Source: Mobula hypostoma (taxonomy: Eukaryota). Taken from it: DNA of 64,000 nt. The DNA is taken from the NCBI RefSeq assembly GCF_963921235.1, contig NC_086107.1:114330001-114394000 (forward strand). The letters run 5' to 3'. Both the position numbers and the translations under genes were made by a program. The notes under the pieces are model-generated. The model saw only the letters and a program-made list of their open reading frames with translations, was not told where the DNA came from and did no database searches. Shown here one piece after another: positions 1 through 63,980 of the stretch (positions are counted from its first letter, which is position 1; the number at the start of each line of letters is the position of its first letter).

Positions 1-582
1 TACTCAATGCTATAAAACAACAAATAAAATAAATAAACAATAAATAAAATCAAGTAACCAGCCAGTACAAGCAACGTCCAGCAGTACAAAAGCACAACTC
101 AGATACATGACAGCCATAAAACCATATTAAAGTGGCAATATAACAAATTTATGGATGATGCTTGATCGATTGGTTCAGAGCAATTATAGCTCTGGGGAAA
201 AAGCTATTTTTCAGTCTGGAAGTGCGGGCATAGAAAATCTTATCAAGTCTGCCAGACGTAAGAAGCTCAAACAGATGATTGCATGGGTGTGTATTGTCCT
301 TACAGATGCTTGTAGCTTTCCTTAGGCAGCGAGAGCTGTAGGTGTCCTCCAGGGCTGGGAGCTGTGTCCCAAAAATCTTCTGTACGCTAGAGACAACCCG
401 CTGAAGTGCTTTCCTATCAGCTGCTGTACAACCGAGATACCACACAGAGATGCAGTATGTTAAGATGCTCTCTATGGTGCAGTGGTAAAAGGTCACCAGC
501 ATCTGTTCAGGTAGACCAGCTTTCTTCAGCGTCCTGAGGAAAAACAAGCATTGCTGTGATTTCTTAACTACTGTTGTGGTGT
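1..582 (-). mobile_element. 3' fragment of a non-LTR retrotransposon (Rex1/Babar- or L2-like C-terminal region)
   Basis: ORF 149..547(-) has FFLRTLKK...FYHCTIESILTYCISVWY...RLKNSFFPRAI, the C-terminal motif set typical of these LINEs; related fragments recur across the window. Confidence 0.75.
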
Positions 583-589
583 TAGTGGA

Positions 590-735
590 CCATGGATAGA
601 TAGCTAGAGAAATAGAAAGAGAGAGATAGATAGATAAAGATAGACAGAGAGATAGATATAGATAGAAATAGAGAGAGGGTGAGATGGATAGAGAGAGTGA
701 TAAAGATAGATGAAAGAGGGGGTGGAGAGAGATGA
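590..735. repeat. GA/GATA-rich microsatellite
   Basis: Runs of GATA/GAGA. Confidence 0.85.
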
Positions 736-797
736 GGGTCTGGGGGAGTGAAGGAGGGTCCGTACATGAACTGACAGAGTTTCTGAAACTCTCTCAG

Positions 798-960
798 GTT
801 GCAGGCGGGAAGACCCTAGTCACGTGCTCGCTCCGCCCCACAGGAATCTACGGAGAGGGTAACCCCATCATGGCAAAGGTGTATCAGATGATTATGAGCT
901 TCGGCGGCTGGAGGCTGCGGCTGGCAGGGAAGGGGGTGGAGCACGCGAGAGTTTACGTGG
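798..960 (+). CDS. HSD3B7: 3-beta-hydroxysteroid dehydrogenase type 7-like, penultimate coding exon (163 nt, phase 0 to 1)
   Basis: ctctcAG acceptor at 796-797 and GTGAGT donor at 961; encodes VAGGKTLVTCSLRPTGIYGEGNPIM...VEHARVYVG, matching the HSD3B7 TCALRPTGIYGEG...EHGRVYVG motifs as I recall them. Confidence 0.9.
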
Positions 961-1121
961 GTGAGTACTGGCCGATCAGGGAAACCCTGTCCTGTGCCCC
1001 GCCTCTGACTCACCATTCTTCCCCCCCCCCCCACTCCCGGGAGCAGGCTTCAACATCGTCCTCTTCCCCACTCCCCCGGGACTGGGTGTCAGACACACCA
1101 TCTCCTCGGGGCCCCTGAGAA

Positions 1122-1931
1122 AGGCAATGATCCCATCTCTGCCCTCTCGGCCCACAGGCAATGATCCCATCTTTGTCCTCTCTGCCCACAGGCAATGACC
1201 CATCTCTGCCCTCTCTGCCCACAGGCAATGATCCCATCTTTGCCCTCTCTGCCCACAGGCAATGACCTATCTCTGCCCTCTCTGCCCACAGGCAATGACC
1301 CATCTCTGCCAACAGGCAATGACCCATCTCTGCCCTCTCTGCCCAAAGGCAATGATCCCATCTTTGCCCTCTCTGCCCACAGGCAATGACCCATCTCTGC
1401 CCTCTCTGCCCAAAGGCAATGATCCCATCTTTGCCCTCTCTGCCCACAGGCAATGACCTATCTCTGCCCACAGGCAATGACCCATCTCTGCCAACAGGCA
1501 ATGACCCATCTCTGCCTTCTCTGCCCAAAGGCAATGATCCCATCTTTGCCCTCTCTGCCCACAGGCAATGACCCATCTCTGCCCACAGACAATGACCCAT
1601 CTCTGCCAACAGGCAATGACCCATCTCTGCCCTCTCTGCCCACAGGCAATGACTCATCTCTGCCCTCTCTGCCCAAAGGCAATGATCCCATCTCTGCCCT
1701 CTCTGCCCACAGGCAATGACCCATCTCTGCCAACAGGCAATGACCCATCTCTGCCCCCTCTGCCCACAGGCAATGATCCCACCTCTGCCCTCTCTGCCAC
1801 AGGCAATGACCCATCTCTGCCCACAGGCAATGATCCCATCTCTGCCCTCTCTGCCCACAGGCAATGATCCCACCTCTGCCCTCTCTGCCCACAGGCAATG
1901 ACCCATCTCTGCCCTCTCTGCCCACAGGCAA
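1122..1931 (+). repeat. Intronic minisatellite, about 26 units of 24/33/34 bp, built from the HSD3B7 3' splice site
   Basis: Unit GCAATGA(T)CCCATCTCTGCCCTCTCTGCCCACAG; the last unit is the real acceptor. Confidence 0.95.
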
Positions 1932-2346
1932 CGTTGCGTGGATGCACGTGCTGGCAGCCCGCGCCCTCCAGCAGACACCCGCCATTGTGGGCGGTGAGGT
2001 CTACTTCTGCTATGACGACTCGCCCTACCTGTGCTACGAGGATTTCGACGCGCTGTTTCTGGGCCCGGTCGGAGTTCAGCTGATCGGACGGACCCCTCTG
2101 CTTCCTTACTGGGCCCTGTATCTGCTGGCACTGCTGGGCGAGGGTCTGCACTTCCTGATGCGGCCACTGGCCAGGAAGGAGATCATCTTCAACCGCTACA
2201 CCCTGGCCATGATCACCACCTCCTTCAGCGTGCACACCAACAAGGCCGCCCGTCACTTTGGTTACAGCCCACTGGTGCCCTGGGCACAGAGCTGGGTCCG
2301 AACCCTCGACTGGGTCCAAACCCTGGCAGGGACACATGTCGGGTAG
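1928..2346 (+). CDS. HSD3B7: 3-beta-hydroxysteroid dehydrogenase type 7-like, last coding exon
   Basis: cccacAG acceptor at 1926-1927; G|GC joins in frame to (G)NVAWMHVLAARAL...GEVYFCYDDSPY...RHFGYSPL...; TAG at 2344-2346. Confidence 0.9.
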
Positions 2347-2846
2347 CCCCTCGCTCCACACCTCCCTGCGCTTTGGGTTCTGTCTTCTCCCTAAACCGGA
2401 CTCTCCCGACGACAGTACAGCCCTTCACCCGTGATGCAGCGCCAAGCTAATTGGTTAAAGCAAGCGGACTGAACTAAACCCTTCCACCTGCACAATGCCC
2501 CCTTCCCTCTGCTTATCTAAGAGCCTCTAACACCTCTGACATATCTGGTTCCAACGCCTGCCCCAGCACCACATTCCAAGCAGCCACCACACTGTGTGTA
2601 AAGAAGAACGTATCACCTGCATCTCCTTCAAACTTTCTCCCTTTTGCTTTAAATGCACATCCTCTATTTCTTGACATTTCTACCCTGGGGTAGAAATACT
2701 GTCTTTCATGTTCTTATAAACCTCAATCAGGTCTCCCCTCACCTTCTACCTAGAAAACAACCCTAGTCTTCCCCCCCCCCCCACCACCCCACTTGTAGCT
2801 CACGCTCTCTAATCCAGGCAGCATCCTAGTGAACATCTTCTGCATC

Positions 2847-2943
2847 CTCTCCAAAGCCCCCACACCCTCTCCAAAGCCCCCATACCCTCTCCAAAGCCCC
2901 CACACACTCTCCAAAGCCCCCACACACTCTCCAAAGCCCCCAC
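2847..2943. repeat. 20-bp tandem repeat (about 5 copies) inside a decayed minus-strand CR1 fragment
   Basis: CTCTCCAAAGCCCCCACAC(A/C) at 20-bp spacing; flanks resemble CR1 (ccaggcagcatcct..gtgaac). Confidence 0.85.
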
Positions 2944-3230
2944 GCCTACCTGCAATGGGACAACCAATACTTTGGGTGCGGACTGACCAGTGTTATACAG
3001 CTGTAAGTTAAAGTCCAACTCTTGAACTCAAGTGTCTCAACTGATAAAAGCAAACATGCCACACTTTATTGCTTGGCAGCATCACGGCCTGGTGTGGAAA
3101 CACTAATGCCCTTGAACGGAAAATCCTACAAGAAGTAGTGGATATGGCCCAGTCCATCACGGGTAAAGCCCTCCCCACCATTGAGCACATCTGCACAGAG
3201 CATTGTCGCAGGAAAGCAGCATCCATCATC

Positions 3231-4240
3231 AGTCATAGTCATAGTCATAGTCATACTTTATTGATCTTGGGGGAAATTGGTTTTCCTTACAGTTGCACCA
3301 TAAATAATAAATAGTAATAGAACCATAAATAGTTAAATAGTAATATGTAAATTATGCCAGTAAATTATGAAATAAATCCAGGACCAGGCTCAGGGTATCT
3401 GACCCTCCACGGGAGGAGTTGTAAAGTTTGATGGCCACAGGCAGGAATGACTTCCTATGACGCTCTGTGTTGCATCTCGGTGGAATGAGTCTCTGGCTGA
3501 ATGTACTCCTGTGCCCAACCAGTACATTATGTAGTGGATGGGAGACATTGTCCAAGATGGCATGAAACTTAGACAGCATCCTCTTTTCAGACACCACCGT
3601 CAGAGAGTCCAGTTCCATCCCCACAATATCACCAGCCTTACGGATGAGTTTGTTGGTTCTGTTGGTGTCTACTACCCTCAGCCTGCTGCCCCAGCACACA
3701 ACAGCAAACATGATAGCACTGGCCACCACAGACTCGTAGAACATCCTCAGCATCGTCTGGCAGATGTTAAAGGACCTCAGTCTCCTCAGGAAATAGAGAC
3801 GGCTCTGACCCTTCTTGTGGACAGCCTCAGTGTTCTTTGACCAGTCCAGTTTATTGTCAATTCGTATCCCCAGGTATTTGTAATCTGCCACCATGTCCAC
3901 ACTGACCTCCTGGATGGAAACAGGGGTCACCGGTACCTTAGCTCTCCTCAGGTCTACCACCAGCTCCTTAGTCTTTTTCACATTAAGCTGCAGATAATTC
4001 TGCTCACACCATGTGACAAAGTTTCCTACCGTAGCCCTGTACTCAGCCTCATTTCCCTTGCTGATGCATCCAACTATGGCAGAGTCATCCGAAAACTCCT
4101 GAAGATGACAAGACTCTGTGCAGTAGTTGAAGTCCGAGGTGTAAATGGTGAAGAGAAAGAGAGACAAGACAGTCCCCTGTGGAGCCCCAGTGCTGCTGAT
4201 CACTCTGTCGGACACACAGTGTTGCAAGCACACTTACTGT
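3231..4240 (-). mobile_element. 5'-truncated Rex1/Babar-like LINE (RT C-terminal half) nested in an older LINE 3' fragment
   Basis: ORF 3352..4233(-) has GAPQGTVLS, EFSDDSAIVG and YKYLG; (GACTAT)n tail at 3231-3254; host sequence ...gcatccatcatc / gggacacccacc... resumes on both sides. Confidence 0.85.
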
Positions 4241-5329
4241 GGGACACCCACCACACAGGCCATGCTCTCTCCTCGCTTGTGCCATCATGAAGAAGGTACA
4301 GGAGCCTCAGGATTCACACCACCAGGTTCAGGAGCAGTTACTACCCCTCAACCATCAGGCTTTTGAACCAAAGCAGCTACTTCACTTGTTCCATCATTGA
4401 AATGCTTCCACAACCCAATGGACTCACTTTCAAGGACTCTTCATCTCATGCTCTCAATATTTGCTGCTTATTTATTTATTATTATTATTTATTTTTATAT
4501 TTGCTGAGTTTATTTTCTTTCACACTGGTTGAATGCCCAAGTTGGCGTGGTCTTTCATTGATCCTATAATGGTTATTGTTAGGGATTTACTGAGAATGCC
4601 CACAATAAAGTTAATCTGAACTCCTCCATCCTGATCAAAAAGGCACAACAGTGCCTTTATTTCCTGCAGAGCATCAAGAAAGCTCACCTCTGTCCCAGGA
4701 TACTGACGGACTTTTACTGCTGTACCATTGAGAGCATACTCACCAACTGCATCTCAGTGTGGTATGGCAATTGTCCCGTATCGGACCGCAAAGCACTCCA
4801 GCGTGTGGTGAAAACTGCCCAGTGGATTATTGGCACCCAATTGCCCTTCTTTCCCCTTCCTTTCCAGTCCTGAAGAAAGGTTTCGGCTGAAACATCGACT
4901 GTTTATTCCTCTCCATAGATGCTGCCTGACCTGCTGAGTTCCTCCAGCATTTTGTTTGTGTTGCTCTGGATTTCCAGCACCTGCAGAATTTATTGTGTTT
5001 GTGGACAGTGCTAAACCCGGCTGTGAGAGGAGAAGGATTGGGTATGGGGCAAGCATCTCCATCTGGAGATTATTTTCTTACAGAACCATTCACAGTAGAA
5101 CAAAGAAATACAATAGAATCAATGAAAAGCTACACACAGAGACTGACTGACAAGCAAACAATGTGAAAACGAAGACGAACTTGCAAATACACAAATATAA
5201 ACAAATAAATAAATCATTAATTAATTAATCAATTAAATGGTAAGTGGTAAAGTCTTTGAAAGTGAGTTTATGGGTTGTGCAATCAGTTCAGTGTTGAGGT
5301 GAGTGAAGTTATCCACACTGGTTTAGGAG

Positions 5330-5910
5330 CCTGATGGTTGAGGGGTGATAACTGTTCCTGAACCTGGTGGTGTGGGACCTGATGGTTGAGGGGTGATAAC
5401 TGTTCCTGAACCTGGTGGTGTGGGACCTGATGGTTGAGGGGTGATAACTGCTCCTGAACCTGGTGGTGTGGGACCTGATGGTTGAGGGGTGATAACTGCT
5501 CCTGAACCTGGTGGTGTGGGACCTGATGGTTGAGGGGTGATAACTGTTCCTGAACCTGGTGGTGTGGGACCTGATGGTTGAGGGGTGATAACTGCTCCTG
5601 AACCTGGTGGTGTGGGACCTGATGGTTGAGGGGTGATAACTGCTCCTGAACCTGGTGGTGTGGGACCTGATGGTTGAGGGGTGATAACTGCTCCTGAACC
5701 TGGTGGTGTGGGACCTGATATTTGAGGGGTGATAACTGTTCCTGAACCTGGTGGTGTGGGACCTGATATTTGAGGGGTGATAACTGTTCCTGAACCTGGT
5801 GGTGTGGGACCTGATGGTTGAGGGGTGATAACTGTTCCTGAACCTGGTGGTGTGGGACCTGATGGTTGAGGGGTGATAACTGTTCCTGAACCTGGTGGTG
5901 TGGGACCTGA
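5330..5910. repeat. 48-bp minisatellite, 12 copies, derived from a LINE 3' region
   Basis: Unit CCTGATGGTTGAGGGGTGATAACTGTTCCTGAACCTGGTGGTGTGGGA x12 (5330-5905); single-copy homologues at about 4315-4360(-) and 15565-15605. Confidence 0.95.
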
Positions 5911-7129
5911 GGTTTCTGTGTGTCCTATCCGAAGGCAGCAGTGGGAAGAGAGCATGATCTGGGTGGTGGGTGTTGTTTGATGCTGGTTGCTGCTTTCTTG
6001 TGGCTCCATTCCTTTAGATGTGCTCAGTGGTGGAAGGGCTCACCCGGAGATGTACTGGGCAGTATCCACTACTTCTTATAGACTTATCCGTTGCTGGGTA
6101 TTGGTGTTTCCGCATCAGGCTGTGATGCAACCAGCCAGCATACTCTCCACTTGCATCCATAGTTTGTCAGATGGCACACCAAAACTGAGCAAACTCAGAA
6201 GAATGCAGAGACACTGCCATGGCTTCATTGTAAGGGCATTTACCTGCTTTCCCCAAGGAATTTAAAGCTGCTGATGGTCTTCAACTCTGTAAACCCTCCC
6301 TTCCCTGCAACTCCCCCCCATCTCTGTAACCCCCTCCCCATCTGTTTAAGGGATCTATCCAATGTTTTAAATGTACTGTCATACTGAAAAAACAATAAAT
6401 AATATTTAAAGTTGTGACCATCAAGCAAAGGGCACAGTACTTCAGCTTATCCTCCGAATGTGTTGATTACATAAGGAGCATTCCCCAAGCTGACTGTTTT
6501 AAATTAACCTTGACACACGCGAAGGAATCTTGTCCTCTTTTGTTTAATTGGAGAAAGGGTTTATTGCAAAACCTGGCCTGGATTAGCAGAATGTCCCCAT
6601 GGAATGGATTAGTGCAAAGACCTAGTCATTTCCAGAGAAATGGGGTTGCTCAGATATTAATGGATGTGGGGGCTGGAGGAGGGGATTACAGAGATATAGA
6701 GGGATGTTGGGAAGAGAGGGATTACAGAGACAGGGAGAGCTGTAGGGGAGGGAGGGTGGTGGTTTGGAACCAGAAGGGTTACAGAGACAGGGAGGGAGGG
6801 GGGTCACAGAGACAGGGAGTTATATAGGAGAGGAAGGGTGTTACAGAAACAGGGAGGGAGGGTCATGGAGCTTTTGAAGTTATAAAGTGATACAGTATAT
6901 CTGTGAGGACTTTAGCCCTGGCATGAGAGGAAGGCAAGTTCCAGTTCTGCTCATTAAGTATTAATTAATTCTTGGTGTTCTTGATTATCCAGATATAACC
7001 ACACCCAAACTCATCTGACTGTGTTGTTGGAGGAGCATGCTTCATACACAGGATATTACAGAGTATTGATATGAACACTGTTTTTCATCTAAAGCTAAGA
7101 CGTACTGCTGTGGGAATGTTTGACACTGG

Positions 7130-28717: not shown

Positions 28718-30680
28718 CATAGAAAACATAGAAACATAGAAAATAGGTGCAGGAGTAGGCCATTCGGCCCTTCGAGCCTGCATCGCCATTTATTATGATC
28801 ATGGCTGATCATCCAACTCAGAACCCCGCCCCAGCCTTCCCTCCATACCCCCTGACCCCGGTAGCCACAAGGGCCATATCTAACTCCCTCTTAAATATAG
28901 CCAATGAACTGGCCTCAACAGTTTCCTGTGGCAGAGAATTCCACAGATTCACCACTCTCTGTGTGAAGAAGTTTTTCCTAATCTCGGTCCTAAAAGGCTT
29001 CCCCTCTATCCTCAAACTGTGGCCCCTCGTTCTGGACTTCCCCAACATCGGGAACAATCTTCCCGCATCTAGCCTGTCCAATCCCTTTAGGATCTTATAC
29101 GTTTCAATCAGATCCCCCCTCAATCTTCTAAATTCCAACGAGTACAAGCCCAGTTCATCCAGTCTTTCTTCATATGAAAGTCCTGCCATCCCAGGAATCA
29201 ATCTGGTGAACCTTCTTTGTACTCCCTCTATGGCAAGGATGTCTTTCCTCAGATTAGGGGACCAAAACTGCACACAATACTCCAGGTGTGGTCTCACCAA
29301 GGCCTTGTACAACTGCAGTAGTACCTCCCTGCTCCTGTACTCGAATCCTCTCGCTATAAATGCCAGCATACCATTCGCCTTTTTCACCGCCTGCTGTACC
29401 TGCATGCCCACTTTCAATGACTGGTGTATAATGACACCCAGGTCTCGTTGCACCTCCCCTTTTCCTAATCGGCCACCATTCAGATAATAATCTGTTTTCC
29501 TATTTTTGCCACCAAAGTGAATAACTTCATATTTATCCACATTAAATTGCATCTGCCATGAATTTGCCCACTCACCCAACCTATCCAAGTCACCCTGCAT
29601 CCTCTTAGCATCCTCCTCACAGCTAACACTGCCACCCAGCTTCGTGTCATCCACAGACTTGGAGATGCTGCATTTAATTCCCTCATCCAGTCATTAATAT
29701 ACATTGTAAACAACTGGGGTCCCAGCACTGAGCCTTGCAGTACCCCACTAGTCACCGCCTGCCATTCTGAAAAGGTCCCGTTTATTCCCACTCTTTGCTT
29801 CCTGTCTGCTAACCAATTCTCCACCCACACCAATACCTTACCCCCAATACCGTGTGCTTTAAGTTTGCACACTAATCTCCTGTGTGGGACCTTGTCAAAA
29901 GCCTTTTGAAAATCCAAATATACCATATCCACTGGTTCTCCCCTATCCACTCTACTAGTTACATCCTCAAAAAATTCTATGAGATTCGTCAGACATGATT
30001 TTCCTTTTACAAATCCATGCTGACTTTGTCCGATCATTTCACCGCTTTCCAAATGTGCTGTTATCACATCCTTGATAACTGACTCCAGCAGTTTCCCCAC
30101 CACTGACGTTAGGCTAACCGGCCTATAATTCCCCAGTTTCTCTCTCCCTCCTTTTTTAAAAAGTGGAGTTACATTAGCCACCCTCCAATCCTCAGGAACT
30201 AGTCCAGAATCTAACGAGTTTTGAAAAATTATCACTAATGCATCCACTATTTCTTGGGCTACTTCCTTAAGCACGCTAGGATGCAGACCATCTGGCCCTG
30301 GGGATTTATCTGCCTTCAATCCCTTCAATTTACCTAACACCACTTCCCTACTAACATGTATTTCGCTCAGTTCCTCCATCTCACTGGACCCTCTGTCCCC
30401 TACTATTTCTGGAAGATTATTTATGTCCTCCTTAGTGAAGACAGAACCAAAGTAATTATTCAATTGGTCTGCCATGTCCTTGCTCCCCATGTCCTTGCTC
30501 CCCATAATCAATTCACCTGTTTCTGTCTGCAGGGGACCTACATTTGTCTTTACCAGTCTTTTCCTTTTTACATATCTATAAAAGCTTTTACAGTCCGTTT
30601 TTATGTTCCCTGCCAGTTTTCTCTCATAATCTTTTTTCCCCTTCCTAATTAAGCCCTTTGTCCTCCTCTGCTGAACTCTG
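28718..30680 (-). mobile_element. Young 5'-truncated CR1 LINE (RT; one frameshift near 29690)
   Basis: ORFs 29480..30769 and 28818..29654 nearly identical to the 31821..34847 protein; (CATAGAAA)n tail. Confidence 0.95.
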
Positions 30681-31069
30681 CATGAATACATAACTAAATT
30701 CTTTGCTTCTGCCACACCCCAACCCACATGACTAACCACACGTAATAAACGCACAGCAAAATAATACAATAAAATGCAAATAGAAAATTAAATATATGGC
30801 TGCTACAAGCGGAGCAGACTCGATGAGCCAAGTGCTGCTATGTCTAATGGTTTTATGCTTGTCCTCAACACCTCTGCTCCACTCTCTACACAATCATGAT
30901 TGAGTGGCCAAATTCTGCTCTAACTGCATCTCCTGCATTAGCCAATAATGCCACCGTAGAGAGCCAGCCAGTGGTGTAGTGGTATCAGCACTGGACTTCG
31001 ATGGTCCCAAGTTCAAATCCAGCTGGATCCCAAGGGCAGCAGCAGTATCTGCAGGGAAGGAAGGCCTGG

Positions 31070-31500
31070 CAGTCTACGAGGCTCAGGTCAGGAGTCTAAT
31101 GGAATTCTTGCAACTCGCCTGGAGGAGTGCAGCTCCATCAACACTCAAGAAGCTGGACACCATCCAGTACAAGGCAGCCCATGATTGGTACCCCTTCCAC
31201 AAGCATCCAATCCCTCCACCATCGACGAACAGTTGCAGCAGTGTGTACTATCTATGAGATGCACCGCAACAACACGCCAAAGTTCCTAAGGAAGCACCTT
31301 CCAGACCCACGACCACTACCATCTAGAAGGACAAGAACAGCAGATACCTGGGCACGCCACTATTTGGAAATCTCCTTCCAAGTCACTCACCATCCTGCTG
31401 GGAATCAATTCCCTCCCTGTGGGTGTACAGTGGCTCAGGAAGGCATCTCACACCACCTTAGCTTAGCTGGGGGCGCCCACATCCCGTAAATGAATAAATT
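31070..31500 (+). mobile_element. Old L2/CR1-group LINE 3' fragment, preceded by a tRNA-derived SINE head (about 30963-31040)
   Basis: YEAQVRSLMEF..LAWRSAAPSTLKKLDTIQ; tail gcccacatccc..aatgaataaa; A/B box-like gtggtgtagtgg...gttcaaatcc. Confidence 0.55.
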
Positions 31501-31726
31501 TTTTAAAAATCTACTTCCGTATCTTGGCACTGAAACTCTATGGACAACTCGATGGCACTCAAGAACAACAGTGGGCCATATCTCAAACATCGATTAGTTA
31601 GAGTACAGGAGAGAGACAGAGAGCCGAGTGACGTGGTGTCAAGATGATAGATATGAAAATACTGAAGGCGTTTTACTCTACAGAGGTGAATAAATGGTTT
31701 ACATTCCTTGTCGAGTTTCTGTTATT

Positions 31727-34700
31727 AAACATAGAAACATAGAAAATAGGTGCAGGAGTAGGCCATTCGGCCCTTCGAGCCTGCACCGCCATTTATTATG
31801 GTCATGGCTGATCATCCAACTCAGAACCCAGCCTTCCCTCCATACCCCCTGACCCCTGTAGCCACAAGGGCCATATCAAACTCCCTCTTAAACATAGCCA
31901 ATGAACTGGCCTCAACAGTTTGCTGTGGCAGAGAATTCCACAGATTCACCACTCTCTGTGTGAAGAAGTTTTTCCTAATCTCGGTCCTAAAAGGCTTCCC
32001 CTCTATCCTCAAACTGTGACCCCTCGTTCTGGACCTCCCCAACATCGGGAACAATCTTCCCGCATCTAGCCTGTCCAATCCCTTTAGGATCTTATACGTT
32101 TCAATCAGATCCCCCCTCAATCTTCTAAATTCCAACGAGTACAAGCCCAGTTCATTCAGTCTTTCTTCATATGAAAGACCTGCCATCCCAGGAATCAATC
32201 TGGTGAACCTTCTTTGTACTCCCTCTATGGCAAAGATGTCTTTCTTCAGATTAGGGGACCAAAACTGCACACAATACTCCAGGTGTGGTCTCACCAAGGC
32301 CTTGTACAACTGCAGTAGTACCTCCCTGCTCCTGTACTCGAATCCTCTCGCTATAAATGCCAGCATACCGTTCGCCTTTTTCACCGCCTGCTGTACCTGC
32401 ATGCCCACTTTCAATGACTGGTGTATAATGACACCCAGCTCTCGTTGCACCTCCCCTTTTCCTAATCGGCCACCATTCAGATAATAATCTGCTTTCCTAT
32501 TTTTGCCACCAAAGTGGATAACTTCACATTTATCCACATTAAATTGCATCTGCCATGAGTTTGCCCACTCACCCAACCTATCCAAGTCACCCTGCATCCT
32601 CTTAGCATCCTCCTCACTGCTAACACTGCCACCCAGCTTCGTGTCATCCGCAAACTTGGAGATGCTGCATTTAATTCCCTCATCCAAGTCATTAATATAT
32701 ATTGTAAACAACTGGGGTCCCAGCACTGAGCCTTGCGGTACCCCACTAGTTACCGCCTGCCATTCTGAAAAGGTCCCGTTTATTCCCACTCTTTGCTTCC
32801 TGTCTGCTAACCAATTCTCCACCCACACCAATACCTTACCCCCAATACCGTGTGCTTTAAGTTTGCACACTAATCTCCTGTGTGGGACCTTGTCAAAAGC
32901 CTTTTGAAAATCCAAATATATCACATCCACTGGTTCTCCCCTATCCACTCTACTAGTTACATCCTCAAAAAATTCTATGAGATTCGTCAGACATGATTTT
33001 CCTTTCACAAATCCATGCTGACTTTGTCCGATGATTTCACCGCTTTCCAAATGTGCTGTTATCACATCCTTGATAACTGACTCCAGCAGTTTCCCCACCT
33101 CCGACGTTAGGCTAACTGGCCTATAATTCCCCGGTTTCTCTCTCCCTCCTTTTTTAAAAAGTGGGGTTACATTAGCCAGCCTCCAATCCTCAGGAACTAG
33201 TCCAGAATCTAACGAGTTTTGAAAAATTATCACTAATGCATCCACTATTTCTTGGGCTACTTCCTTAAGCACTCTAGGATGCAGACCATCTGGCCCTGGG
33301 GATTTATCTGCCTTCAATCCCTTCAATTTACCTAACACCACTTCCCTACTAACATGTATTTCACTCAGTTCCTCCATCTCACTGGACCCTCTGTCCCTTA
33401 CTATTTCTGGAAGATTATTTATGTCCTCCTTAGTGAAGACAGAACCAAAGTAATTATTCAATTGGTCTGCCATGTCCTTGCTCCCCATAACCAATTCACC
33501 TGTTTCTGTCTGCAGGGGACCTACATTTGTCTTTACCAGTCTTTTCCTTTTTACATATCTATAAAAGCTTTTACAGTCCGTTTTTATGTTCTCTGCCAGT
33601 TTTCTCTCATAATCTTTTTTCCCCTTCCTAATTAAGCCCTTTGTCCTCCTCTGCTGAACTCTGAATTTCTCCCAGTCCTCAGGTGAGCCACTTTCTCTGG
33701 CTAATTTGTATGCTACTTCTTTGGAATTGATACTATCCCTAATTTCTCTTGTCAGCCACGGGTGCACTACCTTCCTTGATTTATTCTTTTGCCAAACTGG
33801 GATGAACAATTGTTGCAGTTCATCCATGCAACCTTTAAATGCTTGCCATTGCATATCCACCGTCAATCCTTTAAGTGTCATTTGCCAGTCTATCTTAGCT
33901 AATTCACGTCTCATACCTTCAAAGTTACCCCTCTTTAAGTTCAGAACCTTTGTTTCTGAATTAACTACGTCACTCTCCATGTTAATGAAGAATTCCACCA
34001 TATTATGGTCACTCTTACCCAAGGGGCCTCTCACGACAAGATCACTAATTAACCCTTCCTCATTGCTCAAAACCCAGTCCAGAATAGCCTGCTCTCTAGT
34101 TGGTTCCTCGACATGTTGGTTCAAAAAACCATCCCGCATACATTCCAAGAAATCCTCTTCCTCAGCACCTTTACCAATTTGGTTCACCCAGTCTACATGT
34201 AGATTGAAGTCACCCATTATAACTGCTGTTCCTTTATTGCACACATTTCTAATTTCCTGTTTAATACCATCTCCGACCTCACTACTACTGTTAGGTGGCC
34301 TGTACACAACTCCCACCAGCGTCTTCTGCCCCTTAGTGTTACGCAGCTCTACCCATATCGATTCCACATCTTCCCGGCTTATGTCTTTCCTTTCTATTGC
34401 GTTAATCTCTTTTTTAACCAGCAACGCCACCCCACCTCCCCTTCCTTCATGTCTATCCCTCCTGAATATTGAATATCCCTGAACGTTGAGCTCCCATCCC
34501 TGGTCACCCTGGAGCCATGTCTCTGTGATCCCAACTATATCATAATCATTAATAACAATCTGCACTTTCAATTCATCCACCTTATTACGAATGCTCCTTG
34601 CATTGACACATAAAGCCTTCAGGCGCTCTTTTACAACTCTCTTAGCCCTTGTACAATTATGTTGAAAAGTGGCCCTTTTTAATGCTTGCCCTGGATTTGT

Positions 34701-34880
34701 CGGCCTGCCACTTTTACTTTTCTCCTTTGTACTTTTTGCTTCTATGCTCACTTTACACCCCTCTGTCTCTCTGCACTGGTTCCCTTCCCTCTGTTGTGAA
34801 CTAACCTCCTCACGCCTAGCCTCTTTAATTTGATTCCCACCCCCCAACCATTCTAATTTAAAGTCACCTCAGTAGCCCTA
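31727..34880 (-). mobile_element. Young CR1 LINE with intact ORF2 and the last codons of ORF1
   Basis: Uninterrupted 1008-codon ORF; (CATAGAAA)n tail at 31727; 5' truncation just upstream of the ORF1 stop. Confidence 0.97.
31821..34847 (-). CDS. CR1 ORF2: apurinic-like endonuclease plus reverse transcriptase
   Basis: APE motifs NARS, ITETWL, VYRPP, GDFN, SDH; RT motifs YRPVSL, QHGF, DFQKAFD, GVPQGSVLGP, FADD; the listed start codon is TTG, not ATG. Confidence 0.95.
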   Translation of the reverse strand: MGGGNQIKEARREEVSSQQREGNQCRETEGCKVSIEAKSTKEKSKSGRPTNPGQALKRATFQHNCTRAKRVVKERLKALCVNARSIRNKVDELKVQIVINDYDIVGITETWLQGDQGWELNVQGYSIFRRDRHEGRGGGVALLVKKEINAIERKDISREDVESIWVELRNTKGQKTLVGVVYRPPNSSSEVGDGIKQEIRNVCNKGTAVIMGDFNLHVDWVNQIGKGAEEEDFLECMRDGFLNQHVEEPTREQAILDWVLSNEEGLISDLVVRGPLGKSDHNMVEFFINMESDVVNSETKVLNLKRGNFEGMRRELAKIDWQMTLKGLTVDMQWQAFKGCMDELQQLFIPVWQKNKSRKVVHPWLTREIRDSINSKEVAYKLARESGSPEDWEKFRVQQRRTKGLIRKGKKDYERKLAENIKTDCKSFYRYVKRKRLVKTNVGPLQTETGELVMGSKDMADQLNNYFGSVFTKEDINNLPEIVRDRGSSEMEELSEIHVSREVVLGKLKGLKADKSPGPDGLHPRVLKEVAQEIVDALVIIFQNSLDSGLVPEDWRLANVTPLFKKGGREKPGNYRPVSLTSEVGKLLESVIKDVITAHLESGEIIGQSQHGFVKGKSCLTNLIEFFEDVTSRVDRGEPVDVIYLDFQKAFDKVPHRRLVCKLKAHGIGGKVLVWVENWLADRKQRVGINGTFSEWQAVTSGVPQGSVLGPQLFTIYINDLDEGIKCSISKFADDTKLGGSVSSEEDAKRMQGDLDRLGEWANSWQMQFNVDKCEVIHFGGKNRKADYYLNGGRLGKGEVQRELGVIIHQSLKVGMQVQQAVKKANGMLAFIARGFEYRSREVLLQLYKALVRPHLEYCVQFWSPNLKKDIFAIEGVQRRFTRLIPGMAGLSYEERLNELGLYSLEFRRLRGDLIETYKILKGLDRLDAGRLFPMLGRSRTRGHSLRIEGKPFRTEIRKNFFTQRVVNLWNSLPQQTVEASSLAMFKREFDMALVATGVRGYGGKAGF

Positions 34881-40316: not shown

Positions 40317-41907
40317 CATAGAAACATAGAAACATAGAAAATAGGTGCAGGAGTAGGCCATTCGGCCCTTCGAGCCTGCACCGCCATTTATTATGATCAT
40401 GGCTGATCCTCCAACTCAGAACCCCGCCCCAGCCTTCCCTCCATACCCCCTGACCCCTGTAGCCACAAGGGCCATATCTAACTCCCTCTTAAGTATAGCC
40501 AATGAACTGGCCTCAACTGTTTCCTGTGGCAGAGAATTCCACAGATTCACCACTCTCTGTGTGACGAAGTTTTTCCTCATCTCGGTCCTAAAAGGCTTCC
40601 CCTCTATCCTCAAACTGTGACCCCTCGTTCTAGACCTCCCCAACATCAGGAACAATCTTCCTGCATCTAGCCTGTCCAATCCCTTTAGGATCTTATACGT
40701 TTCAATCAGATCCCCCCTCAATCTTCTAAATTCCAACGAGTACAAGCCCAGTTCATCCAGTCTTTCTTCATATGAAAGTCCTGCCATCCCAGGAATCAAT
40801 CTGGTGAACCTTCTTTGTACTCCCTCTATGGCAAGGATGTCTGTCCTCAGATTAGGGGACCAAAACTGCACACAATACTCCAGGTGTGGTCTCACCAAGG
40901 CCTTCTACAACTGCAGTAGTACCTCCCTGCTCCTGTACTCGAATCCTCTCGCTATAAATGCCAGCATACCATTCGCCTTTTTCACCGCCTGCTGTACCTG
41001 CATGCCCACTTTCAATGACTGGTGTATAATGACACCCAGGTCTCGTTGCACCTCCCCTTTTCCTAATCGGCCACCATTCAGATAATAATCTGTTTTCCTA
41101 TTTTTGCCACCAAAGTGGATAACTTCACGTTTATCCACATTAAATTGCATCTGCCATGAATTTGCCCACTCACCCAACCTATCCAAGTCACCCTGCATCC
41201 TCTTAGCATCCTCCTCACTGCTAACACTGCCACCCAGCTTCGTGTCATCCGCAAACTTGGAGATGCTGCATTTAATTCCCTCATCCAAGTCATTAATATA
41301 TATTGTAAACAACTGGGGTCCCAGCACTGAGCCTTGCGGTACCCCACTAGTCACCGCCTGCCATTCTGAAAAGGTCCTGTTTATTCCCACTCTTTGCTTC
41401 CTGTCTGCTAACCAATTCTCCACCCACACCAATACCTTACCCCCAATACCATGTGCTTTAAGTTTGCACACTAATCTCCTGTGTGGGACCTTGTCAAAAG
41501 CCTTTTGAAAATCCAAATATACCACGTCCACTGATTCTCCCCTATCCACTCTACTAGTTACATCCTCAAAAAATTCTATGAGATTCATCAGACATGATTT
41601 TCCTTTCACAAATCCATGCTGACTTTGTCCGATCATTTCACCGCTTTCCAAATGTGCTGTTATCACATCCTTGATAACTGACTCCAGCAGTTTCCCCACC
41701 ACCGATGTTAGGCTAACCGGTCTATAATTCCCCGGTTTCTCTCTCCCTCCTTTTTTAAAAAGTGGAGTTACATTAGCCACCCTCCAATCCTCAGGAACTA
41801 GTCCAGAATCTAACGAGTTTTGAAAAATTATCACTAATGCATCCACTATTTCTTGGGCTACTTCCTTAAGCACTCTAGGATGCAGACCATCTGGCCCTGG
41901 GGATTTA
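40317..41907 (-). mobile_element. Young 5'-truncated CR1 LINE (RT, one in-frame stop near 40905)
   Basis: ORFs 40905..41873 and 40416..40898 nearly identical to the intact copy; (CATAGAAA)n tail. Confidence 0.95.
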
Positions 41908-42831
41908 GGACCTTCATTGCTGCCTGAAACACCAGCATGTAACGGGCAGCTAAATCAAAATCAGAATCAGGTTTAAAATCATCAGCATAGGCCATGAAAT
42001 TTGTTAACTTTACGGCGGCAGTACATTGCAATACATGATAATAGAGAGAAACAAAAAAAAACTGAATTACAGTAAATATATATAGTATATATTAAATAGT
42101 TAAACTAAATAAGTAGTGCAAAAATAGAAATAAAAAATTAGTAGTGTTCACGGGTTCAATGTCCATTCAGGAATCGGATGGCAGAGGGGAAGAGGCTGTT
42201 CTAGAACGGAGTGTGTGTCTTCGGGCTTCCGTACCTCCTTCCTGATGGTCGCAATGGGAGTAAGGCCTAACCTGGGTGGTGGTGGTCCTTAATGATGGAT
42301 GTCGCCCCTTTGAGGCATCGCTCCTTGAAGCAATCCTATATACTGCGGAGATTACCATCAGCCTCAAGGACAGCTTCCACCCTCCTGCTAAACTTCTAAC
42401 CTGGGCCCTCTGCTCCCAGTGGATCATCGGCCATCAATTACCTCCTGTCTCCGTCGTCCTCTGAAGCTGATGGTATGGTTGGAGTTCATCAATGTTTCTG
42501 TGATCCGTTGTATATCCCCTGTACAGGGGATTGGCTTGTACAGATTCACCAGAGCCCTGTTGTCTGGACTTAACCGTTTCCACACTCCGGACAGGGACGT
42601 AGGGCCAGACTCCATCGTTACTAGTCTGAACTGTCCCCCAATAGACTCTTGCCCTCACAATCTACCTCGTCGTGGCCTTTGCACCTTATTGTCAGCCTGC
42701 ACTGCCCTTTCTCTGGAACTGTAACACTCTATTCTGTGTTCTGTTATTGTTTTACCTGGTACTCTCTCAATGCACTGAGTAATGAATTGAAGCGTATAAG
42801 TGGTATACAAGACTAGTGACCAATTTAGTTT

Positions 42832-52980: not shown

Positions 52981-53456
52981 GATTCTCTGGTTTCTACCCT
53001 TCCTCAAAACCGGAATTGACTTCGGATCTGGCCGCTTCTGTCCACAATTACCCAGGAATGTTTGACCAGTGGAATGTGCCCAGCTGATAGAGAATCACTT
53101 CCTTGTGGCAAAACACCAGCTCCCCTCACACCCAGAAACTCTCCACACACCCACTCTGCCATCCCAGCACACGCTGGGATCTGCTCACCCTCACACAGGT
53201 AGAGACGACTGCCGGTAAATAGCAGGCCTGTCATTGTACTCATGACAGTGATGTTAGGTCAGACATCTCCACGCAGGTTCCAGTACACAGCAATTCCAGC
53301 AGTGGTACCTCACAGCCTGCCAATCCCACCAGGCTGGGAACCCAGTACACCCATTCCCAGCAGAGTGCCAACCCACAGCTTCCTGATCCCAGCAGAGTAG
53401 TGCCCTAATACATTCCAGTCCCAGCACGCAGATCCCAGTAGATGGTGACTACTATC

Positions 53457-56106
53457 GAAGATGTGGAATCGATATGGGTAGAGCTGCGTAACACTAAGGG
53501 GCAGAAGACGCTGGTGGGAGTTGTGTACAGGCCACCTAACAGTAGTAGTGAGGTCGGAGATGGTATTAAACAGGAAATTAGAAATGTGTGCAATAAAGGA
53601 ACAGCAGTTATAATGGGTGACTTCAATCTACATGTAGACTGGGTGAACCAAATTGGTAAAGGTGCTGAGGAAGAGGATTTCTTGGAATGTATGCGGGATG
53701 GTTTTTTGAACCAACATGTCGAGGAACCGACTAGAGAGCAGGCTATTCTGGACTGGGTTTTGAGCAATGAGGAAGGGTTAATTAGCGATCTTGTCGTGAG
53801 AGGCCCCTTGGGTAAGAGTGACCATAATATGGTGGAATTCTTCATTAACATGGAGAGTGACGTAGTTAATTCAGAAACAAAGGTTCTGAACTTAAAGAGG
53901 GGTAACTTTGAAGGTATGAGACATGAATTAGCTAAGATAGACTGGCAAATGACACTTAAAGGGTTGACAGTGGATACGCAATGGCAAGCATTTAAAGGTT
54001 GCATGGATGAACTACAACAATTGTTCATCCCAGTTTGGCAAAAGAATAAATCAAGGAAGGTAGTGCACCCGTGGCTGACAAGAGAAATTAGGGATAGTAT
54101 CAATTCCAAAGAAGTAGCATACAAATTAGCCAGAGAAAGTGGCTCACCTGAGGACTGGGAGAAATTCAGAGTTCAGCAGAGGAGGACAAAGGGCTTAATT
54201 AGGAAGGGGAAAAAAGATTATGAGAGAAAACTGGCAGAGAACATAAAAACAGACTGTAAAAGCTTTTATAGATATGTAAAAAGGAAAAGACTGATAAAGA
54301 CAAATGTAGGTCCCCTGCAAACAGAAACAGGTGAATTGATTATGGGGAGCAAGGACATGGCAGACCAATTGAATAATTACTTTGGTTCTGTCTTCACTAA
54401 GGAGGACATAAATAATCTTCCAGAAATAGTAAGGGACAGAGGGTCCAGTGAGATGGAGGAACTGAGCGAAATACATGTTAGTAGGGAAGTGGTGTTAGGT
54501 AAATTGAAGGGATTGAAGGCAGATAAATCCCCAGGGCCAGATGGTCTGCATCCCAGAGTGCTTAAGGAAGTGGCCCAAGAAATAGTGGATGCATTAGTGA
54601 TAATTTTTCAAAACTCGTTAGATTCTGGACTAGTTCCTGAGGATTGGAGGGTGGCTAATGTAACCCCACTTTTTAAAAAAGGAGGGAGAGAGAAACCGGG
54701 GAATTATAGGCCGGTTAGCCTAACGTCGGTGGTGGGGAAACTGCTGGAGTCAGTTATCAAGGATGTGATAACAGCACATTTGGAAAGCGGTGAAATGATC
54801 GGACAAAGTCAGCATGGATTTGTGAAAGGAAAATCATGTCTGACGAATCTCATAGAATTTTTTGAGGATGTAACTAGTAGAGTGGATAGGGGAGAACCAG
54901 TGGATGTGGTATATTTGGATTTTCAAAAGGCTTTTGACAAGGTCCCACACAGGAGATTAGTGTGCAAACTTAAAGCACACGGTATTGGGGGTAAGGTATT
55001 GGTGTGGGTGGAGAATTGGTTAGCAGACAGGAAGCAAAGAGTGGGAATAAACGGGACCTTTTCAGAATGGCAGGCGGTGACTAGTGGGGTACCGCAAGGC
55101 TCAGTGCTGGGACCCCAGTTGTTTACAATATATATTAATGACTTGGATGAGGGAATTAAATGCAGCATCTCCAAGTTTGCAGATGACACAAAGCTGGGTG
55201 GCAGTGTTAGCAGTGAGGAGGATGCTAAGAGGATGCAGGGTGACTTGGATAGGTTGGGTGAGTGGGCAAACTCATGGCAGATGCAATTTAATGTGGATAA
55301 ATGTGAAGTTATCCACTTTGGTGGCAAAAATAGGAAAACAGATTATTATCTGAATGGTGGCCGATTAGGAAAAGGGGAGGTGCAACGAGACCTGGGTGTC
55401 ATTATACACCAGTCATTGAAAGTGGGCATGCAGGTACAGCAGGCGGTGAAAAAGGCGAACGGTATGCTGGCATTTATAGCGAGAGGATTCGAGTACAGGA
55501 GCAGGGAGGTACTACTGCAGTTGTACAAGGCCTTGGTGAGACCACACCTGGAGTATTGTGTGCAGTTTTGGTCCCCTAATCTGAGGAAAGACATCTTTGC
55601 CATAGAGGGAGTACAAAGAAAGTTCACCAGATTGATTCCTGGGATGGCAGGTCTTTCATATGAAGAAAGACTGGATGAACTGGGCTTGTACTCGTTGGAA
55701 TTTAGAAGATTGAGGGGGGATCTGATTGAAACGTATAAGATCCTAAAGGGATTGGACAGGCTAGATGCGGGAAGATTGTTCCCGATGTTGGGGAGGTCTA
55801 GAACGAGGGGTCACAGTTTGAGGATAGAGGGGAAGCCTTTTAGGACCGAGGTTAGGAAAAACTTCTTCACACAGAGAGTGGTGAATCTGTGGAATTCTCT
55901 GCCACAGCAAACTGTTGAGGCCAGTTCATTAGCTATGTTTAAAAGGAAGTTAGATATGGCCCTTGTGGCTACAGGGGTCAGGGGGTATGGAGGGAAGGCT
56001 GGGTTCTGAGTTGGATGATCAGCCATGATCATAATAAATGGCGGTGCAGGCTCGAAGGGCCGAATGGCCTACTCCTGCACCTATTTTCTATGTTTCTATG
56101 TTTCTA
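53457..56106 (+). mobile_element. Young 5'-truncated CR1 LINE with ORF2 open to the stop
   Basis: ORF 53442..56009 (855 aa) differs from the 31821..34847 protein at only a handful of residues; TTTCTATG tail. Confidence 0.96.
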
Positions 56107-62460: not shown

Positions 62461-63980
62461 ATACTGACACACTCCCCAGGACCCCCTGTAAATACAGACA
62501 CACTCCCCGGGACCCCCAGTAAATACTGACACACTCCCCAAGACCCCCTGTAAATACTGACACACTCCCCAGGACCCCCTGTAAATACCGATACACTCCC
62601 CGGGACCCCCTGTAAATACTGACACACTCCCCGGGACCCCCTGTAAATACTGACACACTCCCCGGGACCCCTGCGAATACCGACACACTCCACAAACCCC
62701 TGTAAATACTGACACACCCCCCAGGACCCCCTGTTAATACTGACACACTCCCCGGGACCCCCTGTAAATACTGACACACTCCCCGGGATCCCCTGTAAAT
62801 TCTGACACACTCCCCGGGACCCCCTGTAAATACTGACACACTCCCCGGGACCCCCTGTAAATACTGACACACCCCCCTGGACCCCCTGTAAATACTGACA
62901 CACTCCCCGGGACCCCTGTAAATACCGACACACTCCCTGGGACCCCCTGTAAATACTGACACACTCCCTGGGACCCCTGTAAATACCGACACACTCCCCT
63001 GGACCCCCTGTAAATACTGACACACTCCCCGGGACCCCCTATAAATACTGACACACTCCCCGGGACCCCCTGTAAATACTGACACACTCCCCGGGATCCC
63101 CTGTAAATTCTGACACACTCCCCGGGACCCCCTGTAAATACTGACACACTCCCCGGGACCCCTGTAAATACAGACACAGTCCCCGGGACCCCTGTAAATA
63201 CAGACACACTCCCCGGGACCCCCTGTAAATACTGACACACCCCCCAGGATCCCCTGTAAATACTGACACACTCCCCGGGACCCCTGCGAATACCGACACA
63301 CTCCACAAACCCCTGTAAATACTGACACACCCCCCAGGACCCCCTGTAAATACTGACACACTCCCCGGGACCCCCTGTAAATACTGACACACTCCCCGGG
63401 ATCCCCTGTAAATTCTGACACACTCCCCGGGACCCCCTGTAAATACTGACACACTCCCCGGGACCCCCTGTAAATACTGACACACCCCCCTGGACCCCCT
63501 GTAAATACTGACACACTCCCCGAGACCCCTGTAAATATTGACACACTCCCCGGGACCCCCTGTAAATACTGACACACCCCCCTGGACCCCCTGTAAATAC
63601 TGACACACTCATCGGGACCCCCTATAAATACTGACACACTCCCCGGGACCCCCTGTAAATACTGACACACTCCCCGGGATCCCCTGTAAATTCTGACACA
63701 CTCCCCGGGATCCCCTGTAAATTCTGACACACTCCCCGGGACCCCCTGTAAATACTGACACACTCCCCAGGACCCCTGTAAATACTGACACACTCCCCAG
63801 GACCCCCTGTGAATACTGACACACTCCCCAGGACCCCTGTAAATACTGACACACCCCCCTGGACCCCCTATAAATACTGACACACTCCCCGGGACCCCCT
63901 GTAAATACTGACACACTCCCCGGGGCCCCCTGTAAATAACGACACACTCCCCGGGATCCCTGTAAATACTGGTACACTCC
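62461..63980. repeat. 30-31-bp minisatellite (about 49 copies); first few units at 59503-59628 left of the CR1
   Basis: Unit AAATACTGACACACTCCCCGGGACCCCCTGT. Confidence 0.97.

What the first reader, a model, noticed from the sequence alone, without database searches (positions are those of the whole stretch)
1122..1931. The whole 3' splice site of the HSD3B7 last intron is amplified into about 26 tandem competing acceptors
Seen: each unit has a branch-point-like ATGAC/ATGAT, a polypyrimidine tract, (C/A)AG and the first exon bases GCAA, so it is a full acceptor cassette; the final unit is the real acceptor (1927). The array is bounded by an AGGCAA direct repeat (1122 and 1926), a likely slippage seed. 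Units are 24, 33 or 34 nt. Splicing to 1894 adds 11 aa in frame (GNDPSLPSLPT). Any acceptor at or upstream of 1860 must read through a 34-nt unit and stops at ...SAHRQ*, deleting the C-terminal exon product. Established: a stop in the last exon would not trigger EJC-dependent NMD. Inference: the spliceosome must pick the last of 26 near-identical sites, or the VNTR acts as a length-dependent dial on the output of this bile-salt pathway enzyme, or the copy is crippled.
Basis: partly seen in the sequence, partly recalled or inferred. Interest (0 to 1): 0.8.

Follow-up and report, generated by a model that had tools for sequence, protein, structure and literature searches.

The report
Repeated splice acceptors; only last used
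In a ray's bile-acid enzyme gene HSD3B7, the end of the last intron has been copied 26 times in a row, yet the RNA seen is joined at the last copy only, so this is a tolerated repeat of a kind already known from lancelets and, in mirror image, from a few human genes.

Summary
Window 1124-1927 holds 26 head-to-tail units (9 of 34 nt, 10 of 33 nt, 7 of 24 nt). Each has a TGAC/TGAT branch-like motif, a pyrimidine tract and a terminal AG. AGGCAA bounds the array at 1122 and 1926. The frame arithmetic is also right. Only 1927 (normal) and 1894 (+11 aa) keep the frame; the other 25 AGs end in ...HRQ*.

The gene is the HSD3B7 orthologue of a myliobatiform ray and all its coding exons are present. The unit occurs nowhere else in the 3.48-Gb genome.

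In 4 of 4 public runs laid, one contig joins exon 5 (ending at 960) to 1928, the canonical joint. None of the 4 showed a joint at 1895 or 1861. Short array-only contigs occur at low depth and could be pre-mRNA.

So the copy is not crippled, and the spliceosome does pick the last of 26 look-alike sites. The "length dial" idea remains untested. This fits the "mirage" minisatellites of amphioxus and mirrors the human F7 intron-7 donor repeat. It is a new member of a known kind and a good natural test case for 3' splice-site choice.

The parts
798..960 (+). HSD3B7 coding exon 5 (54 codons plus the first base of a Gly codon); donor GTGAGT follows at 961
   Evidence: tblastn with the Mobula protein, aa 174-230; Pfam 3Beta_HSD profile positions 167-218; its last 30 letters are the loose ends of the spliced contigs
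961..1121 (+). Non-repeated 5' part of the last intron, about 161 nt
   Evidence: Sequence reading; lies outside the TRF array
1122..1931 (+). Minisatellite: 26 units of 24, 33 or 34 nt plus the 6-nt AGGCAA overlap; it reaches 4 nt into the last exon
   Evidence: found only at this locus in the genome
1124..1894 (+). 25 pseudo-acceptor cassettes (units 1-25). 6 of the 26 upstream AGs have -20..+3 identical to the real site (1224, 1291, 1645, 1712, 1860, 1894)
   Evidence: no joint to 1861 or 1895 in 4 runs
1895..1927 (+). Unit 26, the cassette actually used: candidate branch site CAATGAC (A at 1901), pyrimidine tract, AG at 1926-1927
   Evidence: Spliced contigs start at 1927/1928 in 4 of 4 runs. 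The branch-site position is inferred from the AG at 1893-1894 and the first-AG rule (recalled)
1928..2346 (+). Coding part of the last exon (GC completing Gly, then 138 codons, stop TAG at 2344-2346)
2347..2700 (+). 3' UTR, at least as far as the stretch laid; contigs run on about 80-120 nt further
   Evidence: Contigs cover 1927-2700 without a joint

Best explanation
This is a tolerated 'mirage'-type minisatellite. A roughly 33-nt segment was multiplied in place to 26 copies by slippage and repeated unequal exchange. The segment holds the branch site, the pyrimidine tract, the AG of the last HSD3B7 intron and the first four exon bases, and it is flanked by the 6-nt direct repeat AGGCAA. The gene still works because the splicing machinery uses the copy that abuts the exon and treats the 25 upstream copies as intron. 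Several upstream copies are identical to the real site from at least -20 to +4; for example, 1224 is identical for 48 nt upstream. The choice must therefore be made by information lying 5 nt or more downstream of the AG. That information is either the exon body (exon definition or enhancers acting on a C-rich, weak pyrimidine tract) or, for the upstream copies, the next cassette starting 7 nt after their AG and occluding it. Shown here: the anatomy, locus specificity, the intact gene, and the canonical joint in RNA of three samples of this species and one relative. Inferred: the origin by slippage, the reason the last copy wins, and neutrality.
For: Array anatomy and frames. The unit is found only here in the genome: 9 of 9 hits lie in the array and the reversed control gives 0. 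Recent turnover: an exact 80-nt internal repeat at offset 67 and several exact 56-67-nt repeats. Gene identity and integrity: Pfam 3Beta_HSD. The last exon is 91% identical to Mobula birostris 'HSD3B7-like' and 88% to Hemitrygon akajei HSD3B7. Orthologues read RVYVGNVAWMH with no insert in 7 of 7 fetched. Exons 2-6 and exon 1 were found. RNA: in runs X1, X2, X3 (one organism, three samples) and X4 (a relative, 24 other letters and 4 gaps in 774) one contig covers 1927-2700. Its preceding letters end ...GAGTTTACGTG, which is window 930-959 and unique in the window. That makes 4 of 4 runs. Loose ends at 1861 or 1895: 0 of 4 runs. The joined form cannot be genomic DNA. Exon 5 occurs once in the genome and no intron-less copy was found. 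The neighbouring paralogue has the same phase-1 intron without any array. Precedents: amphioxus mirages, including an acceptor-side one in BflGb6, do not disturb splicing (PMC3087553 passages; PMC3902484 passage). In the F7 intron-7 donor repeat only the exon-proximal site is used (PMC1557585 abstract, introduction and discussion).
Against: The runs are Logan contigs, not raw reads, so they show presence and not absence, and rare junctions are dropped (tool text). I laid only 1850-2700, so joints from 960 to acceptors upstream of about 1850 could not be seen directly. Short array-only contigs do exist in the two deepest runs: X1 has 121 nt at depth 4.5 against 153.8, and X2 has 64 nt at depth 12.7 against 492.9. 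They could come from transcripts spliced at upstream pseudo-acceptors rather than from pre-mRNA. Such transcripts would carry their stop in the last exon and so escape EJC-dependent NMD (established knowledge). Neutrality and the reason for the choice of site were not tested. No orthologous intron from another ray could be fetched, so the age and variability of the array are unknown.
Confidence: 0.8

Rival explanations
1. Leaky decoys, or a length dial. A real fraction of transcripts is spliced to pseudo-acceptors. This would give an NMD-resistant mRNA for a truncated enzyme (...SAHRQ*) or, from 1894, a +11-aa form. Array length would then set how much functional HSD3B7 is made.
For: Six upstream sites are identical to the real one from -20 to +3, and 15 of 26 differ by at most one base. 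Array sequence is present in RNA contigs of X1 and X2 at about 3% of the exon contig's depth figure. In the human 6-16 and CBS donor minisatellites the two nearest pseudo-sites are used (PMC1557585 introduction). A repeat-length dial at a final intron-exon boundary is known in canine PMEL Merle (PMC6091007 passages).
Against: 0 of 4 runs show a loose end at 1895 or 1861. In 4 of 4 runs the main contig runs from exon 5 into 1928 without a break. The array-only contigs carry no exon-5 letters and are equally explained by unspliced pre-mRNA. Their word depth is also inflated because the same words recur in several units. No data on length variation were available.
Confidence: 0.12
2. The copy is crippled. 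The amplified acceptor has disabled this HSD3B7 gene and the neighbouring paralogue has taken over.
For: A second HSD3B7-like gene lies tail-to-tail about 6 kb beyond the window end.
Against: All coding exons are open and match the Mobula protein at 81-94% per exon. Correctly spliced RNA is present at contig depths of 153.8 and 492.9. The paralogue is only 35-58% identical per exon (tblastn) and so is an old duplicate, not a recent replacement.
Confidence: 0.02
3. Assembly artefact. The array, or its length, was produced by mis-assembly.
For: Minisatellites are sometimes mis-assembled; the amphioxus BflGb6 mirage was (PMC3087553 supplementary legend).
Against: Independent RNA contigs of two runs hold multi-unit array sequence. 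The array is 0.8 kb inside a 117-Mb contig. The units carry an ordered mix of variants rather than a collapsed or stuttered copy. The unit number itself is not independently verified.
Confidence: 0.03
4. Self-correcting ratchet. Splicing to any pseudo-acceptor re-creates G|GCAAUG at the junction, a GC-type donor look-alike. Mis-spliced RNA could then be re-spliced to a later acceptor until the last one is reached.
For: Read from the sequence only: every unit begins GCAATG right after its AG. This echoes recursive splice sites (recalled).
Against: The regenerated site lacks consensus at -2, +5 and +6, positions that GC donors normally need (recalled consensus, not tested). Steps of 24-34 nt are below the usual minimum intron size. 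No intermediate was seen.
Confidence: 0.02

Closest known systems
'Mirage' minisatellites of amphioxus (Adh3, troponin C, globins BflGb6/BflGb9, PGBD5)
   Same: They are tandem repeats whose unit spans an intron-exon boundary and so multiplies a splice site. BflGb6 duplicates the 3' end of an intron plus the 5' part of the exon, which is the acceptor side as here. Regular splicing is reported as undisturbed (PMC3087553 passages; PMC3902484 passage).
   Different: This one is in a cartilaginous fish, not a cephalochordate. It has 26 copies against 3-6 for BflGb6, much shorter units (24-34 nt against 150-160), and only 4 exon bases per unit. Each unit is little more than a bare branch site, pyrimidine tract and AG. 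Length instability, shown for Adh3 and BflGb6, was not testable here.
Human F7 intron-7 37-bp VNTR, with the 6-16 (IFI6), CBS, LMNB2 and PDGF donor minisatellites (Borensztajn et al. 2006, PMC1557585)
   Same: The unit holds 4 exon bases plus intron sequence. There are several to 25 splice sites identical in sequence. In F7, LMNB2 and PDGF only the exon-proximal site is used. The pseudo-sites are competent but do not compete.
   Different: Those repeats multiply the 5' splice site and this one multiplies the 3' splice site with its branch site. The 5'-to-3' scanning model proposed for F7 does not explain the choice of the last acceptor. In 6-16 and CBS the two nearest pseudo-sites are also used, which was not seen here.
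[quoted passage not shown]
   Same: A length-variable repeat next to the last acceptor competes with the original acceptor.
   Different: There the repeat is an oligo(dT) tract of an inserted SINE, and its length does shift splicing to the alternative acceptor. Here no shift is seen.
NAGNAG and other tandem alternative acceptors
   Same: Several AGs compete at one exon start.
   Different: NAGNAG sites are 3 nt apart, share one branch site and both are used. Here the spacing is 24-34 nt, each AG has its own branch-like motif, and only one is seen in use.

Membership tests
Mirage-type minisatellite (tandem repeat spanning an intron-exon boundary) | Head-to-tail array of short units | tested here: met
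   TRF score 942; 26 units
Mirage-type minisatellite (tandem repeat spanning an intron-exon boundary) | The unit includes the splice signal and some exon bases, and the array abuts the real exon | tested here: met
   Each unit ends in AG and 25 of 26 begin with GCAA, the first exon bases. The array ends at 1931, 4 nt inside the exon
Mirage-type minisatellite (tandem repeat spanning an intron-exon boundary) | Regular splicing is not disturbed | tested here: met
   Canonical 960|1928 joint in 4 of 4 runs and no other joint seen. These are contig-level data, so rare forms are not excluded
Mirage-type minisatellite (tandem repeat spanning an intron-exon boundary) | Length instability or allelic variation | not testable with these tools
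   Only indirect signs: exact 56-80-nt internal repeats point to recent exchange. No second haplotype or individual was available.
HSD3B7 (3 beta-hydroxysteroid dehydrogenase type 7) orthologue | 3Beta_HSD domain, with best matches named HSD3B7 | tested here: met
   PF01073 at 6.5e-12 and 8.7e-09. The listed hits of E up to about 1e-26 that carry an informative name are HSD3B7 or HSD3B7-like, at 91% to Mobula and 88% to Hemitrygon
HSD3B7 (3 beta-hydroxysteroid dehydrogenase type 7) orthologue | Complete, open coding exons | tested here: met
   Exons 2-6 and exon 1. Exact splice sites of exons 1-4 were not inspected.
HSD3B7 (3 beta-hydroxysteroid dehydrogenase type 7) orthologue | Enzyme activity on 7-alpha-hydroxylated sterols | not testable with these tools
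   Function taken from the family name only
Recursive splice sites (ratchet points) | A 3' splice site directly followed by a strong 5' splice-site sequence | tested here: not met
   The units follow AG with GCAATG. There is only one GT in the array, at 1175 and not at a unit start. The comparison with the GC-donor consensus is from recall.
NAGNAG tandem acceptors | Two AGs 3 nt apart | tested here: not met
   AG spacing is 24, 33 or 34 nt

The most novel reading that the evidence does not exclude
The pseudo-acceptors may not be fully silent. In some tissues or some array-length alleles a meaningful share of HSD3B7 transcripts would be spliced to them. The products would be an NMD-resistant truncated enzyme or the in-frame +11-aa form from 1894. 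An unstable minisatellite would then set bile-salt pathway output in this ray. That would be the first natural length dial built from whole branch-site/tract/AG cassettes.
Probability: 0.08. Interest if true: 0.65.

Novelty: new member of a known kind. Interest (0 to 1): 0.35.

Why it matters
This is a natural experiment on 3' splice-site choice. There are 26 complete cassettes in a row, six of them identical to the real site from -20 to +3 and one identical for 48 nt upstream, yet the RNA seen uses the last one. The deciding information must therefore lie downstream of position +4 or in the way neighbouring cassettes interfere with each other. This is the acceptor-side counterpart of the well-studied F7 donor repeat and could be used in the same way, with minigenes carrying 1 to 26 units or a mutated last AG. 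It also extends boundary-spanning ('mirage') minisatellites from amphioxus to a jawed vertebrate. For annotation, gene finders and splice predictors will see many equal-scoring acceptors here.

Tried and rejected
1. Laying reads on the whole intron. Joints from 960 to acceptors upstream of about 1850, and the depth of the unique intron part 961-1121, therefore remain unseen.

2. No listed holder is on record as RNA. The runs were shown to hold spliced RNA only by the joint itself.

3. X3 and X4 have no cover over 1850-1907. This is no evidence either way.

4. A protein search with the translation of 1897-2343 (the +11-aa reading), lengths 'near', found no protein of this species (best hit 64%). 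It says nothing about a +11-aa isoform. The 'longer' search also held no protein of this species.

5. A masking RNA structure. The fold of 1100-1960 has z -1.63 against 20 shuffles and a nearly open centroid, so there is no sign of a structure that hides the upstream sites.

6. Another reading on the opposite strand or as an RNA gene. The long minus-strand open frames give no Pfam family above cut-off and Rfam gives 0 matches in 1-6000.

7. A dispersed repeat or transposon origin is rejected, because the unit occurs only here.

8. Literature on acceptor-side minisatellites in vertebrates. Searches found none; one search returned 0 papers. A search for HSD3B7 + elasmobranch + bile returned 0 papers. 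The original mirage paper (Canestro et al. 2002, PMC117041) is not held and is cited only through PMC3087553.

9. Earlier notes of this scan, by place and by sequence, returned nothing.

10. No splice-site scoring matrix (MaxEnt) was available. I compared the -20..+3 windows directly instead.

Full report
**What is there**

The window starts inside a gene on the + strand. Positions 798-960 and 1928-2346 are two coding exons of a 3-beta-hydroxysteroid dehydrogenase (Pfam PF01073, E 8.7e-09 and 6.5e-12). Together they read ...EHARVYV-G-NVAWMHVLAAR... across a phase-1 intron. The donor is GTGAGT at 961 and the acceptor AG is at 1926-1927.

The last exon is 91% identical to Mobula birostris 'HSD3B7-like' and 88% to Hemitrygon akajei HSD3B7. 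The other listed hits that carry an informative name are also HSD3B7. Seven fetched orthologues all read RVYVGNVAWMH with no insertion.

The window is G000:C45:114330001-114394000 in a 3.48-Gb assembly. Coding exons 2-4 lie 2.4-9 kb upstream of the window and exon 1 about 50 kb upstream. All are open.

**The array**

TRF finds one array at 1122-1931. Cut at the AGGCAA anchors, it gives 26 units from 1124 to 1927: 9 of 34 nt, 10 of 33 nt (one of them, unit 22, a shortened 34-type) and 7 of 24 nt.

- Every unit ends in AG, and 25 of 26 begin GCAA, the first four bases of the exon.
- Every unit has TGAC or TGAT, with its A 26-27 nt (or 17 nt in the short units) before the AG.
- The 810 nt contain 27 AGs, all at unit ends, and one GT.
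- Six of the 26 upstream AGs have a -20..+3 window identical to the real acceptor (1224, 1291, 1645, 1712, 1860, 1894), and 15 of 26 differ by at most one base.
- Site 1224 is identical to the real site for 48 nt upstream and 4 nt downstream.

The array shows higher-order structure and exact internal repeats of up to 80 nt (1312-1391 = 1379-1458). This pattern is typical of ongoing unequal exchange.

A 41-nt unit pattern with up to 3 mismatches occurs 9 times in the whole genome, all inside this array, and its reversed control occurs 0 times. The array is therefore home-grown and not part of a dispersed element.

The array is 26 units plus a 6-nt overlap (AG + GCAA).

**Consequences of each acceptor**

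Joining 960 to each of the 27 AGs gives the normal protein from 1927 and a +11-aa in-frame protein from 1894 (...YVGNDPSLPSLPTGNVAW...). The other 25 each give a stop ...HRQ* after 13-51 extra residues, losing the 138 C-terminal residues.

The stop would lie in the last exon. No joint is seen in 1927-2700 in RNA contigs. Escape from EJC-dependent NMD is therefore expected from established knowledge.

**What the RNA shows**

A run search with the last exon found three runs of one organism (X1-X3, three samples, shares 1.00/1.00/0.97) and runs of a second organism with partial shares.

I laid X1-X4 on 1850-2700.

In 4 of 4 runs one contig covers 1927-2700, at depth figures of 153.8, 492.9, 7.25 and 12.6. 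Each carries loose letters before 1927 ending ...GAGTTTACGTG. The 30-letter consensus is window 930-959 and is unique in the window. Base 960 (G) is the same letter as 1927, which is why the alignment starts one base early.

This is the canonical 960|1928 joint. It cannot be genomic DNA, because exon 5 occurs once in the genome and no intron-less copy exists. The runs therefore hold spliced RNA.

X4 differs by 24 letters and 4 gaps in 774, so it is a related species, and it uses the same joint.

No run shows a loose end at 1895 or 1861 (0 of 4).

Two short array-only contigs exist: X1 has 121 nt at depth 4.5 and X2 has 64 nt at depth 12.7. They carry no exon-5 letters. They show that array sequence is present in RNA at a low level. 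This is expected for pre-mRNA but is also compatible with some use of upstream acceptors.

The depth figures are per contig and are inflated in repeats. Contigs also drop rare variants. A minor leak therefore cannot be excluded.

**How it most likely works**

Under the accepted rule that the first AG downstream of the branch point is used (recalled; also referred to in the PMC1557585 discussion), the branch point for 1927 must lie after the AG at 1893-1894. That places it in unit 26, where CAATGAC (A at 1901) is the only candidate. Choosing an acceptor here thus means choosing a cassette.

Several cassettes equal the real one from far upstream to +4. The discrimination must therefore come from +5 onwards. 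There are two candidate sources, both inferred:

- **The exon body.** The pyrimidine tracts are C-rich, so they are probably weak and dependent on enhancers.
- **Occlusion by the next cassette.** In every upstream unit another branch site begins 7 nt after the AG. Complexes on neighbouring cassettes spaced 24-34 nt apart should exclude each other, and only the last AG is never overlapped.

A masking RNA structure is not indicated (z -1.63, open centroid).

**Comparison with what is known**

Tandem repeats that span an intron-exon boundary are known as 'mirages' in amphioxus. Examples are Adh3, troponin C, PGBD5 and the globins. BflGb6 repeats the 3' end of an intron plus the start of the exon. 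They are reported not to disturb splicing and to vary in length (PMC3087553 passages; PMC3902484 passage).

The mirror image on the donor side is well studied in human F7 intron 7: 5-9 copies of 37 bp, with 4 exon bases per unit. Only the exon-proximal site is used, and the pseudo-sites are competent but do not compete. Further cases are 6-16 (25 pseudo-sites, the two nearest also used), CBS, LMNB2 and PDGF (PMC1557585).

A true length dial at a final acceptor exists in canine PMEL Merle (PMC6091007).

My searches found no acceptor-side boundary minisatellite described in a vertebrate. That covers only the open-access library searched.

The present case is therefore a new member of a known kind. 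It is notable for its copy number and for units that are almost nothing but a complete 3' splice site.

**Verdict**

Interest is moderate. It is a clean natural substrate for studying 3' splice-site choice, not a new mechanism.

Noticed in passing
G000:C45:114400224-114405966 (about 6-12 kb beyond the window end), loci L007 and L014, minus strand: A second, divergent HSD3B7-like gene lies tail-to-tail with this one. It is 35-58% identical per exon to the Mobula HSD3B7-like protein (tblastn). It has the same phase-1 intron at YVG|N (about 790 nt) but no acceptor array. Its last exon ends ...SLARPRSE*.
   Followed up: partly
L007:1416-1521: A perfect 44-nt x 2.4 tandem repeat (100% matches) covers the stop codon and the start of the 3' UTR of that paralogue. 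It is a very young duplication at a coding end.
   Followed up: no
window 2846-2943: A 20-nt x 4.9 tandem repeat (CCTCTCCAAAGCCCCCACAC, 96%) lies just downstream of the stretch of HSD3B7 3' UTR covered by RNA contigs.
   Followed up: no
window 5330-5914: A 48-nt x 12.2 minisatellite at 98% identity (TRF score 1100), of unknown context.
   Followed up: no
window 152-793 (-), 3355-4233 (-), 29483-34868 (-), 40908-41954 (-), 53442-56006 (+), 59701-63038 (-): Many LINE-type retrotransposon fragments (Pfam RVT_1, Exo_endo_phos, ALKBH8_N-like tail). One lies in the intron just upstream of exon 5 and one just downstream of the gene. The longest open frame is 1015 aa at 31824-34868.
   Followed up: partly
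window 595-711: A GATA/GAGA-rich simple repeat lies in the intron about 90 nt upstream of the exon-5 acceptor.
   Followed up: no
window 2101 (run X4): The related organism B lacks 3 nt here. This matches the one-residue gap (RTPL-PYW) in the Mobula birostris protein relative to this ray.
   Followed up: no
about 190 nt upstream of the 960|1928 joint, in RNA contigs of X1 and X2: Both contigs start exactly 190 letters before the joint, about 27 nt into exon 4. This may mark an alternative splice or a variant there. Named orthologue isoforms that skip upstream exons exist in Mobula and Hemitrygon.
   Followed up: no
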